64,000 nt of DNA. Origin: Isurus oxyrinchus. Taxonomy: Eukaryota. Made by a program: the position numbers and the translations under genes. Position 1 is the stretch's first letter, and the number at the start of each line of letters is the position of its first letter. The DNA lies in contig JANJGN010000031.1 of assembly GCA_026770705.1 (NCBI GenBank), positions 10,540,001-10,604,000 of the forward strand. Reading direction: 5' to 3'. The notes under the pieces were generated by a model. The model made no database searches and was not told where the DNA came from. It worked only from the letters and a program-made list of their open reading frames with translations. Below, piece by piece: positions 1,882-47,748 of this stretch.

Positions 1882-2071
1882 AGGGAATATTTCATGGTCA
1901 TGAGAGAATAAGGAATTTGGAAACCTAAGGACAGAGTAAGTAAATGCACAATTTACTGTGTGGTATTGTGCTCTACATTTTGGTATGTGCCTTACTACGA
2001 ACATGCGAATTAGGAGCAGGAGATGGCCACTCGGCCCCTTGACCCTGCTCCGCCAATAAGATCATGACTGA

Positions 2072-4657
2072 TAAAAGCAAAAAACTGTGGATGCTGGAAA
2101 TCCAAAACAAAAATAAAAATACTTGGAAAAACTCAGCAGGTCTGAAAGCATCTGCAGAGAGGAACACAGTTAACGTTTCGAGTCCATATGACTCTTCAAC
2201 AGAACTAAGGAAAAATAGAAAAGAGGTAAAATATAACTGGTTTAAGGGGAGTGGGACAAGTAGAGCTGGATAGAGGGCCAGTGATAGGTGGAGATTGCCA
2301 AAATATGTCATAGTCAAAAGGACAAAGAGGTGTTGAAGGTGGTGATATTATCTAAGGAATGTGCTAATAGGTGACATTAAGGGTAGAAAGCAGGATGAGC
2401 AAGGTACAGATAGCCCTAGCTGGGATGGGGGGAAGGGATCAAAATAGGGTAAAAGGTAGAGATAAAATGATGAATGGAAATACATTTAAAAATAATGGAA
2501 ATAGGTGGGAAAAGAAAAATCTATATAAATTATTGGAAGAAAGGGGGGATCGGAAAGGCGATGGGGATAGAAGAGAGAGTTCATGATCTAAAATTGTTGA
2601 ACTCAATATTCAGTCTGGAAGGCTGTAAAGTGCCTAGTCGGAAGATGAGGTGCTGTTCCTCCAGTTTGCGTTGAGCTTCACTGGAACATTGCAGCGGGCC
2701 AAGGACGGACATGTGAGCATGAGAGCAGGGTGGGGTGTTGAAATGGCAAGCGACAGGGAGGTCTGGGTCATGCTGGTGGACAGACCGAAGGTGTTCTGCA
2801 AAGCAGTCACCCAGTCTGCGTTTGGTCTCTCCAGTGTAGAGGAAACCGCATTGAGAGCAGCGAATGCAGTAGACTAAGTTGAAGGAAATGCAAGTGAAAT
2901 GCTGCTTGAAAGGAGTGATTGGGCCCTTGGACGGTGAGGAGAGGGGAAGTAAAGGGTCAGGTGTTGCACCTTCTGCGGTTGCATGGGAAGGTGCTGTGGG
3001 AGGGGGTTGAGATGTAGGGAGTGATGGAGGAGTAGACCAGGGTGTCACGGAGGGAATGATCCCTGTGGAATGCTACCAGTAGGGGAGGGGGGTGATTGGA
3101 AGATGTGGTTGGTGGTGGCATCATGCTGGAGTTGGCGGAAATGGCGGAGGATGATCCTTTGAATGCGGAGGCTGGTGGGGTGATAAGTGAGGACAAGGGG
3201 GACCCTATCATGGTTCTGGGAGGGAGAGGAAGGTGTGAGGGTGGATGCGCAGGAGATGGGCCAGACACGGTTGAGGGCCCTGTCAACCACCGTAGGTGGA
3301 AAACCTCGGTTAAGGAAGAAGGAGGACATGTCAGAGGAACTGTTTTTGAAAATGGCATCATCAGAACAGATGCGACGGAGGTGAAGGAACTGAGAGAATG
3401 GGATGGAGTCCTTACAGGAAGCGGGGTGTGAGGAGCTGTAGTCAAGGTAGCTGTGGGAGTTGATAGGGTTGTAATGAATATTGGTGGACAGTCTATCACC
3501 AGAAATTGAGACAGAGAGGTCAAGGAAGGGAAGAGAAATGTCAGAGATGGACCATGTGAAAATGATGGAGGGGTGGAAATTGGAAGCAAAATTAATAAAT
3601 TTTTCCAGGTCTAGATGAGAGCATGAAGCAGCACCGAAGTAATCATCAATGTACCGGAGAAAGAGTTGTGGGAGGGGGCCGGAGTAGGAATGGAACAAGG
3701 GATGTTCCACATACCCCATAAAGAGACAGGCATAGCTGGGGCCCATGCGGGTACCCATAGCCACACCTTTTATTTGGAGGAAGTGAGAGGAGTTTAAGGA
3801 GAAATGAAATTGTTCAGTGAGAGAACAAGTTCAGCCAGATGGAGGAGAGTAGTGGTGGATGGGGATTGTTCAGGCCTCAGGCCTCTGTTCGAGGAAGAAG
3901 CGGAGAGCCCTTAGACCATCCCGGTGGGGGATGGAGGTGTAGAGGGATTGGATGTCATGGTGAAGAGGAGGCGGTTGGGGCCGGGGAACTGGAAATTGTT
4001 GATTTGATGTAGGGTGTCAGAGGAATCATGGATGTAGGTGGGAAGGGACTGGACAAGGGGAGAGAGAATGGAGTCAAGATAGCGAGAAATGAGTTCCGTG
4101 GGGCAGGAACAGGCTGTCACTATCGGTCTGCCAGGACAGTCCTGTTTGGGTAGGAGGTAGAAGCGGGCCGTCCGAGGTTGGGAGACTATGAGGTTGGAAG
4201 CTGTGGGAGGAAGATCCCCAGAGGAGATGAGGTCAGTAACTGTCCTAGAAACAATGGCTTGATGTTCAGTGGTGGGGTCATGGTCCAGGGAGAGGTAGGA
4301 GAAAGTGTCTGCGAGTTGACGCTCAGCCTCTGCGAGGTAGAGGTCAGTGCACCAGACAACAACAGCTCCACCCTTGTCAGCGGGTTTGATGACAATGTCA
4401 GGGTTGGACCTGAGAGAACAGAGTGCAGCAAGTTCAGAGAGAGACAGGTTAGATTGGGTGAGAGGAGCAGAGAAATTGAGACGACTAATGTCACGCCGAC
4501 AGTTCTCAATGAAAAGATCAAGAGAAGGTAAGAATCCAGAGGGAGGGGTCCAGGTAGAGGGAGAATATGAAGGCAGGTAAAAGGATCTGTTGAACGGGGA
4601 GAGGACTCCTGCCCAAAGAAGTGAGCACGGAGATGAAGGCGGCGGAAGAAGAGCCAA
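2072..4657 (-). mobile_element. Penelope-like retroelement (RT + GIY-YIG), 5'-truncated and frameshifted
   Basis: ORF pieces IKPADKGGAVVVW, GTRMGPSYACLFMG, LRYIDD, and YCIRCSQCGFLYTGETKRRLGDCFAEH (GIY-YIG); homologous to 44371-47748. Confidence 0.93.
2167..2207 (-). ncRNA. Minimal type I hammerhead-ribozyme-like motif at the Penelope 3' end (variant core CUGUUGA)
   Basis: Minus reads TAGTT-CTGTTGA-A-GAGTC-ATATG-GACTC-GAAACGTT-AACTG: stem I TAGTT/AACTG, stem II GAGTC/GACTC, palindromic AACGTT in place of stem III. Confidence 0.65.
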
Positions 4658-4659
4658 AG

Positions 4660-6136
4660 TGAATCATGGCAAGAAGGAAGCCATGTTCTTTGGGAACTGG
4701 GCTGACCGATCCTTTGTCCCCTTCACCGTCAGATCAGACAAGCTGAAGGTGCAGCTGGTGTGGTGTGGAGGGGCAGGGGGTGTGGTTTGTAGGGGCAGGG
4801 GCGTGTACCAAAAACTGGAAGGAGCGTATAGGCAAGGTGAAACAGAAAGTAGGCATGTGGGAGCGACTCTCCCTCTCCGTTGCAGGGAAGAACCTGGTCA
4901 TCAGGTGTGAGGTGCTCTCAATATTGCAGGTTGGACTCATATATTGCTCCTGCACTACGGTGGTCACCGGATGGTGATGAAGATGACTCCATCTTCCACT
5001 TTATCTGGAGATCAAAAATAGGCCATGTCCATAGGGGCACATGTGCGTTCCTCTAGGTAACGGGATTGAGAACGTAACCAACACCACCCTCAGCCTGATG
5101 GCCGCCATTGCATGTGGCTGCATCAAGCTGTGTGTAGACCTTCAGTACACGAACACCAAGCATCACTATGTGTTGAGGTTCCACCTGTCCCTGGTATTGT
5201 CTAGGGTGGGTCTGGCCACATTGCCACAGGACATTCCATTCAGTTGGACATGCTGTACTACCTGTCCCTTATGGAAAAGTTTATGCAAAAAACATCTTTG
5301 ACCACAAGTCCATCAGGCAGTGGTCGACACATAAAATCCTCAAGGCCCTGCAGGAAAAGGAGAGGGTGGATCCTTTCGTTCCTTGAGCAGACTGTCAAAG
5401 TCATTTGGCAGAATGCTTCATCACCAGAACTTTCAAACAAGCACCAAGATGCATCTTGGCTGGTGGTGAGAAGGTCCCACCCCATCAGATCTTTCTTGCA
5501 TGCCCAGAGTCTCACTCCCTCTGCATGCTGCCCTCAGGGTGGCTGAGATGGGGAAGAGTCTCTTCTGAAATGTACCTTTGTAAAGCAGGTCTGGAAAGAG
5601 AACGATTTCTTTCAAGGTTCATCCCGAGCAGCTCGGTGTGTGTCCCTGAGAACAGCCCATTGAGACAACGAGATAAACAACAACTGCAGCCGGAGGACCA
5701 TAAACTCAGTGAAAGACGCTCTTTGGTATGCCTGAAATGTATTGATCTTTCAGTGCAAAGAACTGTCAGTGACTGAGTGTTGCAGACTGGCATATTCCAA
5801 GGTCCAGGGCTATGTGCTGAGGGATACACTATACCCTGGTACAGCCACTGCAAAGGCTCAATGGGAAAAGGCCACTGTCTAAGGACTTCCTGCCATAGTA
5901 TACTGAGGGGCTGGAAATAGTTTAAAACCCTTCAGGCTGTATGCACTGGAGAATGTTTGACATGAAATGTAAATGTATATTGTAAATATAATTTGTAATG
6001 GCAAGTGTAATGAGGCACCTTATAATAATATAATGAAAGAAATTGATCGGTGTTGCACTTTATGTAATGTCAAATTTGAACTATTTTGTAATGCGCTATT
6101 ACAAATTTTATGAATAAAGTATTTTTTGGAAAAAAA
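4660..6136 (+). mobile_element. Tx1/L1-clade LINE 3' fragment (degraded ORF2 C-terminus, 3'UTR, poly(A))
   Basis: NWKERIGKVKQKVGMWERLSLSVAGKNLVIRCEVLS and WQNASSPELSNKHQD motifs; AATAAA at 6113-6118 followed by an A run at 6130-6136. Confidence 0.8.
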
Positions 6137-16785: not shown

Positions 16786-16838
16786 AAACTAAATATGAAT
16801 CTATCCACAAGGGGTTATACTCTGCCTACTGAAGTACT

Positions 16839-16931
16839 GTTGAAGGGTCATGAGGACTCGAAACGTCAACTCTTTTCTTCTCCGCCGATGCTGCCAGACC
16901 TGCTGAGTTTTTCCAGGTAATTCTGTTTTTG
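16839..16931 (+). mobile_element. 93-bp Penelope 3'-end insertion with a 12-bp TSD
   Basis: Matches the Penelope ends at 20173 and 47596; flanked by TACTGAAGTACT at 16827-16838 and 16932-16943. Confidence 0.85.
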
Positions 16932-17184
16932 TACTGAAGTACTAACTGGCCTGCTGTAAATCAACATTTCCTTTAGATACAACAACTATATTTCCTCTTT
17001 TGGAGATCTTCAGGATGAGATTCACATGGGAGACATAAGATCCAGTTCACCCATGGCGCCTGCTGTTCTTACACATTCAAAATATTCTTTGTATGTTCCC
17101 CAAGGTTCCATTTCACATCTTATAGAGGAGATTTTGGTCGCTTGATACTCAATGAAACAGTTTCATAAAATAACATGTTTCTGA

Positions 17185-19074: not shown

Positions 19075-19600
19075 GCGTTCCATCCTCTCACTCATAGGCA
19101 GTCCCTCAGGATCGAGGATGTCTTGCTTCCACTTTGTTCAATGGGTTCTGAGATGACTGACAAGTTCAATGCACAATCTGCAGACTCTGCCATATGCAGG
19201 GCAGACGATGCTTGGATGGTGGGGTAGATGAACTGTTTGGAGACTTGCGCACTCTCTACGACACCTGGACTTCACTCCTGCCTGTTCCTGACAAAGTCTC
19301 TCGAGGTGTTTGGTGCCTTCCCGAATGAACCTTTGGCCAGTCACAAGCTAGGGACTCCCATGAATCAGTGAGGATGTTTGTTCTCTTCAGGGATGCATTG
19401 AGGACATTCCTAAAGCTGTCTGCCTGGAAGTCTCCTGCTGCGAGTGAGTTCTGAGCAGAGCAGTTGTTGCAGGAGTCTGGTGTAAGGCAAATGAACAACA
19501 TATTCTGCCCAGCAGGGTTGGCTTTGAGTGATTAGCACCTTATTGCTGGGCTTGTTGGCTTGGGAGAGGGCACGGTGTTGGACCCCCTTTCTTGCCACTG
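19075..19600 (-). mobile_element. RTE-clade LINE 3' fragment
   Basis: C-terminal zinc-finger-like CPAYGRVCRLCIELVSHLRTH. Confidence 0.6.
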
Positions 19601-19604
19601 GTTT

Positions 19605-20280
19605 TGCAGGACCTTGCAAGAAAGACCCAAACCTCCCTGTCGCTTGCCATTTTAACACTCCACCCTGCTCTCTTGCCCACATGTCTGTCCTTGGCTTGCT
19701 GCATTGTTCCAGTGAAGCCCAATGCAAACTGGAAGAACAGCACCTCATCTTCTGACTAGGCTCTTTACAGCCTTCCGGACTGAATATTGAATTCAACAAT
19801 TTTAGATCTTGAACTCCCTCCTCCATCCCCACACCCTTTCCATTTCTTCCCACTCTTGTTTTTTCCAATAATTTATATAGATTTTTCTTTTCCAATTTCC
19901 ATTATTTTAAATCTATACCTTTTATGCCCGGTTAGTCTTATTCCACCCCACCCCCACTAGAGCTGTACCTTGTGTGCCCTGACATCCATTCTTAATCAGC
20001 ACATTCGTTTAGATATCACCACCTTCAACACCTTTGTTCTTTTGTCTGTGACATCCTTTGATTAACTGCTCCTATCACTGCTTGTTTGTCCCTAAAACCA
20101 CACCCCCCCCTTCGCTCCCCCCAACCCCCCACCTTAAAACAGCTTATATTTCACCCCTCTCCTAATTTCACTCAGTTCTGTTGAAGGGTCATGAGGACTC
20201 GAAACACCAACTTTTTTCTTCTCTGCCGATGCTGCCAGACCTGCTGAGTTTTTCCAGGTAATTCTGTTTTTGTTTTTGTT
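19605..20280 (+). mobile_element. Penelope-like element 3' fragment (hammerhead-like motif at 20173-20213)
   Basis: KKDPNLPVACHFNTPPCSLAHMSVLG; homologous to 46990-47700. Confidence 0.9.
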
Positions 20281-27742: not shown

Positions 27743-28047
27743 CAGGGGTTGGGAACCTATGGCTCATGGGCCGGATCCAGCGCAGCAAGATTTCTAAAAA
27801 TATAGACCTACGACCGTAGCACCTTCAAAATAGTATTTATCTTCGTTACGAATTTGCTTTGGATAAAAGCGCCAGCTAAATTACTACAATAATATTTAAC
27901 AACATAAATATTTGAATTCAGCTGATGCATTAAAACAGCGGGTGAGTTGAAAAAAACTAAATTAAGTTAATGTGTGTGTGTGGGGCCCACAACTGATTTT
28001 GCCTGTGTGTGAATGGCCCGTGACAAGAAAAAGGCTCCTCAGCTGCG
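27743..28047. mobile_element. hAT/Charlie-type MITE
   Basis: Left TIR CAGGGGTTGGGAACCT; degenerate right TIR; 8-bp TSD ATCTAACC at 27735-27742 and 28048-28055. Confidence 0.8.
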
Positions 28048-44370: not shown

Positions 44371-47300
44371 TTTGTTTTTTATCTTTGTGTTTAATTGACT
44401 GCCACTCCTCTTCAAGAAATGCTTACCTTGAAGAAGTTTTGTTTGTCTCTGCGACAAGATTTCTGTATCTCTCCTTTGGCTTGTTCACCTTCATTGCTTT
44501 CCATTTCTCTCCTGGTGTTTGACAAGGTGTTTACTAAAACCCGCTTTCACAGCCATATCTCCTTTCTCAGTGACTGTCTCCGTCTCCGACTTACCCCACG
44601 TGGATTTCAACTGAAATTCCATCCCTCTTGTTTCGAACCCACCCAAGATTACAGGTATCTCCGGGACATAAAACGTTTCTCGGACTGCTGTTCCCATCAC
44701 ATTCTGACATCCACACTCAGTGCCATGTGCCGCCATATTAACACACTCGACCTCTCCCTCCAGCAGCACTGCCGCACCCTTTTTCAAAGCTGCGCGTGCC
44801 CCCAGTTTCACTTTATTCTTCGTCTCATCCGACGCCTCAACAAGAAACTTTTTCTCTTTCAAGTGCTAAGGAATGCAAGCTCCAACAACTCATCGACACC
44901 AACATCCATCTAGGACCCTCCACCCCTGCCTGTCCCTCCGTCCCCACTCCATCTTCCAATCCCAGCCCCGGCTGTGTATTCACTATACCCCCTGACCTTC
45001 CCCTCTCCGACGCTGAATGTTCAGTGCTCAGCAAAGGACTTAGTTTCATACCCTTACGCCCTCATCTCAATGAATATCTGGCTCGGCACGATGCTGAACT
45101 CTCCTTCCACCATCTTTGTCTCCGTGCTCACTTCTTTGGGCAGGAGTCCTCTCCCTGTTCAACGGATCCTTTTACCCACCTCCAATATTCTCCCTCCACC
45201 TGGACCCCTCCCTCTGGATTCTTACCTTCTCTTGATCTTTTCATTGAGAACTGTCGGTGTGACATTAGTCGTCTCAATTTCTCTGCTCCTCTCACCCATT
45301 CTAATCTGTCTCTCTCTGAATTTACTGCACTCCGTTCTCTCAGGTCCAACCCCAACATTGTCATCAAACCCGCTGACAAGGGTGGTGCTGTTGTTGTTTG
45401 GCGCACTGACCTCTACCTCGCGGAGGCTGAGCGTCAACTCGCAGACACTTCTTCCTACCTCTCCCTGGACCATGACCCCACCACTGAACATCAAGCCATT
45501 GTTTCTAGGACTGTCACTGACCTCATCTCCTCTGGAGATCTTCCTCCCACAGCTTCCAACCTGATAGTCGCCCAAACTCGGATGGCCCGCTTCTACCTCC
45601 TACCCAAAATTCACAAACAGAACTGTCCCGGTAGACTGATCGTGTCAGCCTGTTCCTGCCCCAGGGAACTCATTTCTCGCTATCTTGACTCCCTTCTCTC
45701 TCCCCTTGTCCAGTCCTTTCCCACCTACATTCGTGATTCCTCTGACACTTACGTCACATCAACAATTTCCAGTTCTCTGGCCCCAACCGCTTCCTCTTCA
45801 CCATGGATGTCCAATCCCTCTACACCTCCATACCCCACCAGGATGGTCTGAGGGCCCTTAGCTTCTTCCTCGAACAGAGGCCCGAACAATCCCCATCCAC
45901 CACTACTCTCTCCGTCTGGCTGAACTTGTTCTCACACTGAACAATTTCTCCTTCAACTCCTCTCACTTCCTCCAAATAAAAGGTGTGGCTATGGGTACCC
46001 GCATGGGCCCCAGCTATGCCTGTCTCTTTATGGGGTATGTGGAACTTTCCTCGTTCCAGTCCTACTCTGGCCCCCTCCCACAACTCTTTCTCCGGTCCAT
46101 CGATGATTACTTCGGTGCTGCCTCATGGTCTTGTTGGGACTTGGAAAAATTTATTAATTTTGCTTCCAATCTCCACCCCTCCATCATTTTCACATGGTGC
46201 ATCTCTGACACTTCCCTTCCCTTCCTTGACCTCTCTGTCTCAATTTCTGGTGATAGACTGTCCACCAATATCCATTACAAGCCTACCGACTCCCACAGCT
46301 ACCTCGACTACAGCTCCTCACACCCCGCTTCCTGTAAGGACTCTAACCCATTCTCTCAGTTCCTTCGCTTCCGTCGCATCTGTTCTGATGATGCTACCTT
46401 CAAAAACAGTTCCTCTGACATGTCCTCCTTCTTCCTTAACCGAGGTTTTCCACCCACGGTCGTTGACAGGGCCCTCAACTGTGTCCGGCCCATCTCCCGT
46501 GCATCCGCCCTCACGCCTTCTCCTCCCTCCCAGAAACATGATAGGGTCCCCCTTGTCCTCACTTATCACCCCACCAGCCTCCGCATTCAAAGGATCATCC
46601 TCCGCCATTTCCACCAACTCCAGCATGATGCCACCACCAAACACATCTTCCCTTCACCCCCCCCAACCCCCCCCCCCCACCCCCCCGGCGGTATTCCGTA
46701 GGGATCGTTTCCTCCGTGACACCCTGGTCCACTCCTCCATCACCCCCTACTCCTCAACTCCTATCTATGGCACCTCCCCATGCCCACGCAAAAGATGCGA
46801 CACCTGCCCCTTCACTTCCTCTCTCCTCACCATCCAAGGGCCCAAACACTCCTTTCAAGTGAAGCAGCATTTCACTTGCATTTCCCCCAACTTAATCTAC
46901 TGTATTCGTTGTTCCCAATGCGGTCTTCTCTACATTGGAGAGACCAAACGTAAACTGGGCAACCGCTTTGCAGAACACCTGAGGTCTGTCCACAAGAAAG
47001 ACCCAAACCTCCCTGTAGTTTGCCATTTTAACACTCCACCATGCTCTCTTGCCCACATGTCTGTTCTTGGCATTGTTCCAGTGAAGCCCAACGCAAACTG
47101 GAGGAACAGCACCTCATCTTCTGACTAGGCACTTTACAGCCTTCCAGACTGAATATTGAATTCAACAACTTTAGATCTTGAACTCCCTCCTCCATCCCCA
47201 CCTCTTTTCCGTTTCTTCCCCCTTCCTTTTGTTTTTTCCAATAATTTATATAGATTTTTCTTTTCCCACCTATTTCCATTATTTTTAAATCTTTTATGCC

Positions 47301-47513
47301 CTGCTAGTCTTTCCACCCCACCCCCACTAGAGCTGTACCTTGAGTGCCCTGCCATCCATTCTTAATTAGCACATTCGTTTAGATAATATCACCACCTTCA
47401 ACACTTCTTTGTTCCTTTGTCTGTGACATCTTTTAATTATCTGCTCCTATCACTGCTTGCTTGTCCCTACAACCACAATAACCCCCCCACCTCTTCTCTC
47501 TCTCCCCCACCGA

Positions 47514-47544
<31 letters not shown>

Positions 47545-47748
47545 CCACCCCCACCTTAAACCAGCTTATATTTTACCCCTCTTCTAATATTCAATCAGTT
47601 CTGTTGAAGGGTCATGAAGACTCGAAAAGTCAACTCTTTTCTTCTCCGCCAATGCTGCCAGACCTGCTGAGTTTATCCAGCTAATTCTGTATTTGTTTTG
47701 GATTTCCAGCGTCTGCAGTTTTTTGTTTTTGTTTTTATCTCTGTTTTT
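44371..47748 (+). mobile_element. Near full-length Penelope-like element (ORF ~44419-47181, disrupted)
   Basis: N-terminal FLSDCLRLRLTPRGF; RT with YIDD changed to SIDD; GIY-YIG YCIRCSQCGLLYIGETKR; frameshifts; hammerhead-like motif at 47596-47636; short terminal direct repeat TTTGTTTTT(T)ATCT. Confidence 0.93.

What the first reader, a model, noticed from the sequence alone, without database searches (positions are those of the whole stretch)
2167..2207. Penelope-borne hammerhead motif with a non-canonical CUGUUGA core in all four copies
Seen: copies at 2167-2207 (-), 16837-16872, 20173-20213 and 47596-47636 all read CTGTTGA-A-G(A/G)GTC-loop-GACTC-GAAA. Stem II keeps pairing across variants (GAGTC or GGGTC with GACTC). 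Stem I (AGTT/AACT) is present except in the truncated 16839 copy. The palindromic ACGT is intact in two copies. Established: Penelope-like elements carry minimal type I hammerheads, whose core is CUGANGA...GAAA and which are thought to act as dimers. Here the conserved A6 is U in every copy, so the change is family-wide rather than random decay. Inference: this is either a variant ribozyme or a family that mobilises without efficient self-cleavage.
Basis: partly seen in the sequence, partly recalled or inferred. Interest (0 to 1): 0.7.

Follow-up and report, generated by a model that had tools for sequence, protein, structure and literature searches.

The report
Shark retroelement ribozyme with altered core
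A very abundant jumping-gene family in what is likely a shark genome kept multiplying after its small self-cutting RNA motif swapped a normally fixed core letter (A to U), so the cutting is probably much slowed and not needed for jumping, although the rest of the core has been kept.

Summary
Confirmed. All four motifs lie at the 3' end of one Penelope-like element (reverse transcriptase plus C-terminal GIY-YIG), and all read U at hammerhead position 6. The change is family-wide: the motif pattern has 105,671 exact genomic matches, of which 4,943 have A6. Intact 926-codon elements carry U6 at both ends. A6 marks the oldest subfamilies; U6 arose later, and the youngest, largest burst reads CUGUCGA rather than CUGUUGA. 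Since U6 appeared, subfamily consensuses changed 4 of 7 positions that a hammerhead leaves free and 0 of 13 unpaired core positions (p about 0.007; few events, biased sampling), which hints at continued selection on the core. There is no clear genomic trace of cutting: 0 of 30 copies holding the ORF start begin at the predicted cut, and 23 of 30 span it. No two-sided stem covariation was found. Best reading: a weakened ribozyme in an element that spreads from uncut RNA. Cleavage is untested. I found no published natural U6 hammerhead, but could not read the key paper (Lünse 2017). The scan noted this before in the same genome (e1-9904347) and an A6C case in another genome (e1-9834341).

The parts
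2167..2207 (-). Minimal type I hammerhead motif, U6/U7 core, A-U form of stem II, predicted cut between 2172 and 2171; letters match the early U6 subfamily S2
   Evidence: subfamily assigned by eye from diagnostic letters
2070..4668 (-). 5'-truncated, broken Penelope-like element that carries the motif above (RT and endonuclease pieces, 3' region, tail)
   Evidence: blastn and tblastn with an intact element
16837..16931 (+). Solo 3' end that starts at the hammerhead core (no 5' arm of stem I), predicted cut 16867/16868; 12-bp target-site duplication 16827-16838 and 16932-16943
19552..20276 (+). 5'-truncated copy: end of the endonuclease, 3' region, motif
20173..20213 (+). Hammerhead motif, U6/U7, subfamily S5; decayed at 16.2 and U16.1
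44371..47740 (+). Near-full-length element, 90% identical to an intact copy, ORF broken by stops and frameshifts, no upstream hammerhead, long tail
47596..47636 (+). Hammerhead motif, U6/U7, subfamily S5; position 15.2 decayed; predicted cut 47631/47632

Best explanation
The motif is the minimal hammerhead at the end repeat of an autonomous Penelope-like retroelement whose source copies changed core A6 to U, which likely slows self-cutting strongly without abolishing it, while new copies are likely made from uncut RNA. Shown: the element, its intact ORFs flanked by two U6 motifs, the order A6 (old) to U6U7 to U6C7 (young), and two 3' ends about 40 nt apart downstream of the motif. Inferred: the protein binds its RNA, nicks DNA and starts reverse transcription at those two sites, reading through the motif. 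Inferred: residual slow cutting, probably as a dimer through the ACGU palindrome or with help from the element protein, is still useful at some step (for example trimming read-through tandem transcripts), so the other core letters are kept.
For: U6 is in the source lineage. In samples not chosen by core, 20 of 24 readable cores (30 copies) and 63 of 77 readable cores (100 copies) have U6. Age order: median non-CpG divergence 0.075 for A6 S1, about 0.055 for S2 and S3, 0.045-0.061 for S4-S6, 0.020 for S7; ladder tree, S7 support 100. After U6, consensus changes fall at N7, H17 (U to C, both allowed), two loop II letters and one pair-keeping stem letter: 4 of 7 free positions against 0 of 13 unpaired core positions (Fisher p=0.007) and 1 of 31 constrained positions (p=0.002), while 46 of 262 UTR sites vary. 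Slowing: a natural A6C hammerhead is slow but active (PMC3088659 passages; PMC7151607); single CUGA mutants had low activity (PMC9901934 passages). Cutting dispensable: hammerhead mutants did not affect insertion by the anole element in vitro, and its ribozyme cut only with protein (PMC11167929); 23 of 30 ORF-start copies span the upstream cut and 0 of 30 start at it.
Against: No cleavage data. No rate for A6U itself was found. Junction starts show no clear peak at the cut: in 30 loci, 7 at +1 against 5, 10, 4 and 4 at -4 to -1. The selection signal rests on about five substitutions; against the four-fold-site rate (18 of 149) it is not significant (p 0.10-0.16), and the downstream 60 nt are about as conserved (9 of 60 vary, p=0.16 against the motif). 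Most copies were fetched by patterns that fix the core, so subfamilies with other core changes could be missed. In 135-nt context the hammerhead stems are predicted not to form in S4-S7 (stem II probability 0.00-0.02). Minimal PLE hammerheads with a normal core are already slow (PMC4209133), so U6 could take activity to zero.
Confidence: 0.5

Rival explanations
1. The ribozyme is catalytically dead since A6U; the sequence is kept for another job (binding of the element protein, positioning of reverse transcription, or promoter DNA in the end repeat).
For: No cut footprint. The downstream stretch is similarly conserved. U6 allows a new U6-A15.1 pairing that closes the core into a plain hairpin in U6U7 copies. 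Naiad elements lack canonical hammerheads and still reach high copy numbers (PMC8557442 passages).
Against: The changes that did occur fall on the positions that hammerhead catalysis leaves free. The later U7C change breaks the alternative hairpin. A6 copies also fold into a non-catalytic hairpin as monomers.
Confidence: 0.3
2. A neutral relic: the ribozyme was lost and the rest of the core has simply not had time to change.
For: S2 and S7 consensuses differ by only 9.3%; 14 unchanged sites have probability 0.07-0.16 at background rates. A minor C6 form also exists (about 90 of 100 listed among 2,057 non-U6 matches with the young loop).
Against: 4 of 7 free sites changed against 0 of 13 core sites; stems I and II were never broken at consensus level.
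Confidence: 0.12
3. U6 is a fully active variant, compensated by the dimer context or by the element protein.
For: The change was fixed before the largest bursts and kept. Starts at +1 exceed those at +2 to +4 (19 against 2, 3 and 6 of 30 loci).
Against: No double mutant rescued the CUGA turn except the C3-G8 swap (PMC9901934). The +1 excess is mostly inverted junctions with a 4-nt stem I microhomology and vanishes against upstream positions.
Confidence: 0.08

Closest known systems
Minimal type I hammerheads of metazoan Penelope-like elements (Cervera and De la Pena 2014, PMC4209133; main text parts 1-2 of 4 and supplement parts 1-2 of 3 read)
   Same: Place in the end repeat; short stem I; extra nucleotide between A9 and G10.1; G10.1-C11.1; no stem III loop, palindromic 15.2-16.2; U-rich 5' flank; very many solo and inverted copies.
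   Different: U at position 6. All 56 representatives in their Fig. S3 have A6 (their search required it, so this is biased). Their reported core variant is U3-A8. No shark is in that figure.
EN+ Penelope-like elements of Neptune/Nematis type (Craig et al. 2021, PMC8557442, passages)
   Same: One ORF with RT, a CX2-5CxxC linker (CPRKRCNTC, residue 783) and C-terminal GIY-YIG; partial tandems, inverted copies, optional tail.
   Different: Clade not placed by a tree here; hammerhead core is non-canonical.
Natural A6C hammerhead of phage Bcep176 (PMC3088659 passages; PMC7151607 part 1 of 4)
   Same: A natural change at the same core position; slow but active; prefers Mn2+.
   Different: C rather than U; a single phage locus with a full three-stem ribozyme, not a minimal motif amplified about 100,000 times.
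Poseidon element of Anolis carolinensis, PAc (Frangieh et al. 2024, PMC11167929, parts 1-2 of 4 read)
   Same: Two reverse-transcription start sites downstream of the hammerhead that give the tail; insertion from uncut RNA.
   Different: No position-6 change is described for its hammerhead in the parts read; it overlaps the ORF start, whereas here the ORF begins about 170 nt after C3.

Membership tests
EN+ Penelope-like element | Single ORF with RT and C-terminal GIY-YIG endonuclease | tested here: met
   926-codon open frames in L062 and L064; Pfam RVT_1 E 7e-08 and 3.4e-06, GIY-YIG E 0.0009 and 0.0023, GIY-YIG below its curated cut-off
EN+ Penelope-like element | Pseudo-LTR tandem or inverted layout and optional 30-40 bp tail | tested here: met
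   Tandem units of 3,340-3,353 bp; of 151 3' ends, 64 at +90 to +109 and 49 at +130 to +149 from C3; inverted junctions
Neptune/Nematis clade | CX2-5CxxC linker between RT and endonuclease | tested here: met
   criterion from PMC8557442
Neptune/Nematis clade | Placement in an RT tree with named references | not tested
   No named reference set was fetched
Minimal type I hammerhead (min-HHR) | Stems I and II, extra base after A9, G10.1-C11.1, palindromic 15-16, NUH site | tested here: met
   93% of cells paired against 21-47% for slid controls
Minimal type I hammerhead (min-HHR) | Core CUGANGA with A6 | tested here: not met
   U6 in all four window copies and in most of the family; met only in the older subfamilies
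Minimal type I hammerhead (min-HHR) | Two-sided covariation in the stems | tested here: not met
   0 of 10 pairs in 15 closely related copies; little power
Minimal type I hammerhead (min-HHR) | Self-cleavage after position 17 | not testable with these tools
   Only contigs, no raw reads, were offered; genomic junction proxy inconclusive
Non-LTR retrozyme | Short non-coding tandem unit with a hammerhead | tested here: not met
   Source units are 3.3-kb coding elements; window copies are truncated forms

The most novel reading that the evidence does not exclude
A natural U6 hammerhead that still cuts, slowly or only with its element's protein: the retroelement turned its ribozyme down at position 6, kept every other catalytic letter, and then underwent its largest expansions, so position 6 acts as a rate dial and lowered cutting favoured spread.
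Probability: 0.3. Interest if true: 0.7.

Novelty: new variant of a known kind. Interest (0 to 1): 0.45.

Why it matters
What hammerheads do in Penelope-like elements is open: the founding paper proposes RNA processing (PMC4209133), an in vitro study found cutting unnecessary for insertion (PMC11167929), and another suggests they may simply parasitise the elements (PMC8557442). This family is a natural experiment. Old A6 and young U6 subfamilies lie in one genome, differ by few letters, and intact U6 elements exist, so rate and need for cutting can be compared directly. An active U6 core would also widen the hammerhead consensus; searches that require CUGANGA miss about 100,000 motifs in this genome alone.

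Tried and rejected
Random decay as the source of U6: rejected. With the young loop, A6 (6 of 100 listed) is about as rare as G6 (4 of 100), counted by eye. CpG decay as the source of CTGTTGA: true for a few S7 copies only; S2-S6 consensuses have U7. Cut footprint: by eye, about 4 of 39 true truncations at +1 over 18 positions, flat. One search suggested an excess at +1 (65 of 100 listed by eye, 29 of them one inverted-junction class with stem I microhomology). The upstream control removed it (by eye 27 at +1 against 11, 12, 24 and 26 at -1 to -4). The scripted check used 30 of 143 and 30 of 219 matches. A6 controls were dominated by length variants, one tandem array and microhomology junctions, and gave no usable comparison. 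Idea that young subfamilies evolved a long rod that hides the ribozyme: seen in per-copy medians but not on consensuses (z +0.7 to -0.7 against shuffled upstream); not supported. Rfam: no hammerhead hit. Sequencing runs: contigs only; they show the motif in runs of several coded organisms but no RNA ends, strand or level. The first tree was noisy and not used; three U6 copies group among A6 copies, so a single origin is likely but not resolved. Lünse et al. 2017 was not held. PMC11014351, PMC6155905 and PMC12192606 (passages) added nothing on U6.

Full report
Observation. The 16837 copy is a solo end with a 12-bp target-site duplication and lacks the 5' arm of stem I. The 20178 and 47601 copies have private damage at 15.2-16.1. 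Rfam does not recognise the motif (9 hits at E<=10, none a hammerhead).

What carries it. Each motif lies near the 3' end of one retroelement. The window holds a near-full-length broken copy (44371-47740), two truncated copies and the solo end. Elsewhere in the genome, L062 and L064 hold open frames of 926 codons flanked by a U6 motif on each side, 3.3 kb apart. Pfam gives RVT_1 and a weak C-terminal GIY-YIG, and a CX2-5CxxC linker lies between them, as defined for Neptune and Nematis (PMC8557442, passages). Of 151 sampled 3' ends, 64 fall at +90 to +109 and 49 at +130 to +149 from C3, and 22 run on into the ORF: the optional tail of Penelope-like elements. The closest named proteins are from Chiloscyllium punctatum (64-68% identity), so the host is likely a shark; this is inference.

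How common U6 is. A 30-letter pattern with positions 6 and 7 free has 105,671 matches (reversed control 0); with A6 it has 4,943. U6U7 has 16,965 matches with the young loop and 6,887 with old loops. In the first 100 listed, by eye, 76 read CTGTCGA, 19 CTGTTGA, 1 CTGTGGA, 2 A6 and 2 C6. Exact patterns favour young copies. Samples not chosen by core: 30 copies anchored downstream gave 20 U, 2 A, 2 C and 6 unreadable (one C call, L242, is a mis-parse at a junction and looks like A6); 100 incidental copies gave 63 U, 7 A, 6 C, 1 G and 23 unreadable. With the young loop, non-U6 matches number 2,057; of 100 listed about 90 are C6, 6 A6 and 4 G6, so A6 there is at mutation background and a minor C6 form exists.

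Order of events. From 199 distinct copies, 121 with an intact upstream motif were sorted by diagnostic letters. Median non-CpG divergence: S1 (A6) 0.075, S1b (A6) 0.077, S2 0.055, S3 0.054, S4 0.061, S5 0.047, S6 0.045, S7 (U6C7) 0.020; S0 (3 copies) and one unclassed copy gave no value. A tree of 66 copies with positions 6 and 7 masked, rooted on S1b, is a ladder with A6 at the base and S7 at the tip (support 100). Three U6 copies sit among A6 copies, so the S1/S2 boundary is unresolved. A6 is therefore probably ancestral. All 56 published representatives have A6 (PMC4209133 Fig. S3), though their search demanded it.

Is the core still under selection? Across S2-S7 consensuses (S2 to S7 9.3% apart; four-fold sites 18 of 149) the motif changed at N7, H17, two loop II letters and stem position 10.2 (A-U to G-U), and nowhere else. 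That is 4 of 7 free against 0 of 13 unpaired core positions (p=0.007). Against this: few events; p 0.10-0.16 at the four-fold rate; the downstream 60 nt are about as conserved (9 of 60); most copies were fetched by patterns that fix the core. There is no two-sided covariation in 15 copies. Folding: the bare motif forms stems I and II; U6U7 adds a pairing with A14-G16.2 that closes the core, but A6 copies misfold similarly. In 135-nt context stem II is predicted not to form in S4-S7.

Is there a trace of cutting? Of 30 copies that hold the ORF start (first 30 of 3,798), 0 begin at the upstream cut, 23 span it and 7 begin at +92 to +137. No A6 control of this kind was available. Junction starts near the cut: an apparent excess over downstream positions came largely from inverted junctions that use the stem I microhomology and disappeared against upstream positions (scripted on 30 loci each). 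Inconclusive, at most weak. Only contigs were offered for RNA runs, so RNA ends could not be examined.

What position 6 does, from papers. Natural A6C is slow (below 0.1 per min) but active (PMC3088659, passages); in another hammerhead A6C gave 3.55e-6 per min in 300 uM Mg2+ against 0.3 for A6, and 0.18 in Mn2+ (PMC7151607, part 1 of 4). Single mutants of the CUGA turn had low activity (PMC9901934, passages). Minimal PLE hammerheads are slow even as dimers (PMC4209133). In the anole element, ribozyme mutants did not affect insertion and cutting needed protein (PMC11167929, parts 1-2 of 4). I saw no measured rate for A6U.

Mechanism. Shown: element, U6 in source copies, age order, two 3' ends. 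Inferred: reverse transcription starts downstream and reads through an uncut motif; A6U slows cutting strongly; residual cutting or another use keeps the remaining core. Odds: weakened but still cutting 0.5; dead but structural 0.3; neutral relic 0.12; fully active 0.08.

Novelty. Searches showed no natural U6 hammerhead and no description of shark PLE hammerhead cores in the listings and passages I read. The retrozyme preprint (10.64898/2026.07.22.740005; abstract and Results part 1 of 2) sampled one cartilaginous fish without core detail; its supplements are closed. Lünse et al. 2017 on small PLE hammerhead variants was seen only as a title in a reference list; it and its supplements could hold position-6 variants. 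It works like a minimal PLE hammerhead but fails the A6 membership feature: a new variant of a known kind. The scan reported the same change earlier in this genome and an A6C case in another genome; these are unchecked notes, not support. The cut-footprint test was prompted by one of them.

Noticed in passing
L062:3529-3563 and other S7 copies (35 nt upstream of C3): The youngest subfamily has built, step by step, a second copy of the 3' strand of stem II plus GAA just upstream of the motif; it could pair with stem II or with the downstream region.
   Followed up: partly
G000, listing; L137 (both arms C6): A minor C6 form (roughly 1,700-1,850 matches by extrapolation from 100 listed) exists within the U6 lineage, matching the known natural A6C variant; some may be single-copy transitions.
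   Followed up: partly
L198-L227: 5' ends of ORF-start copies avoid +6 to +91 (0 of 30) and cluster at -24 to +5 (6 of 30) and +92 to +137 (7 of 30) from C3; possible transcription start or reverse-transcriptase pausing at the structured region.
   Followed up: no
L288-L347; listing: Inverted insertions are often joined in register with stem I or stem II of the motif through 3-4 nt microhomology, in both A6 and U6 subfamilies.
   Followed up: partly
G000:C2:106880000-107016000: A tandem array of about 2.3-kb units, over 40 matching units, each holding a decayed end of an old subfamily.
   Followed up: no
window 27842-27889: Weak Rfam match to the UnaL2 LINE 3' element (24.1 bits, below the gathering score of 55).
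   Followed up: no
L064:4660-4700: A splice-donor-like CAG/GTAAT and an acceptor-like TTTCCAG lie between the motif and the ORF start, only about 30 nt apart; no spliced joint was seen in contigs.
   Followed up: partly
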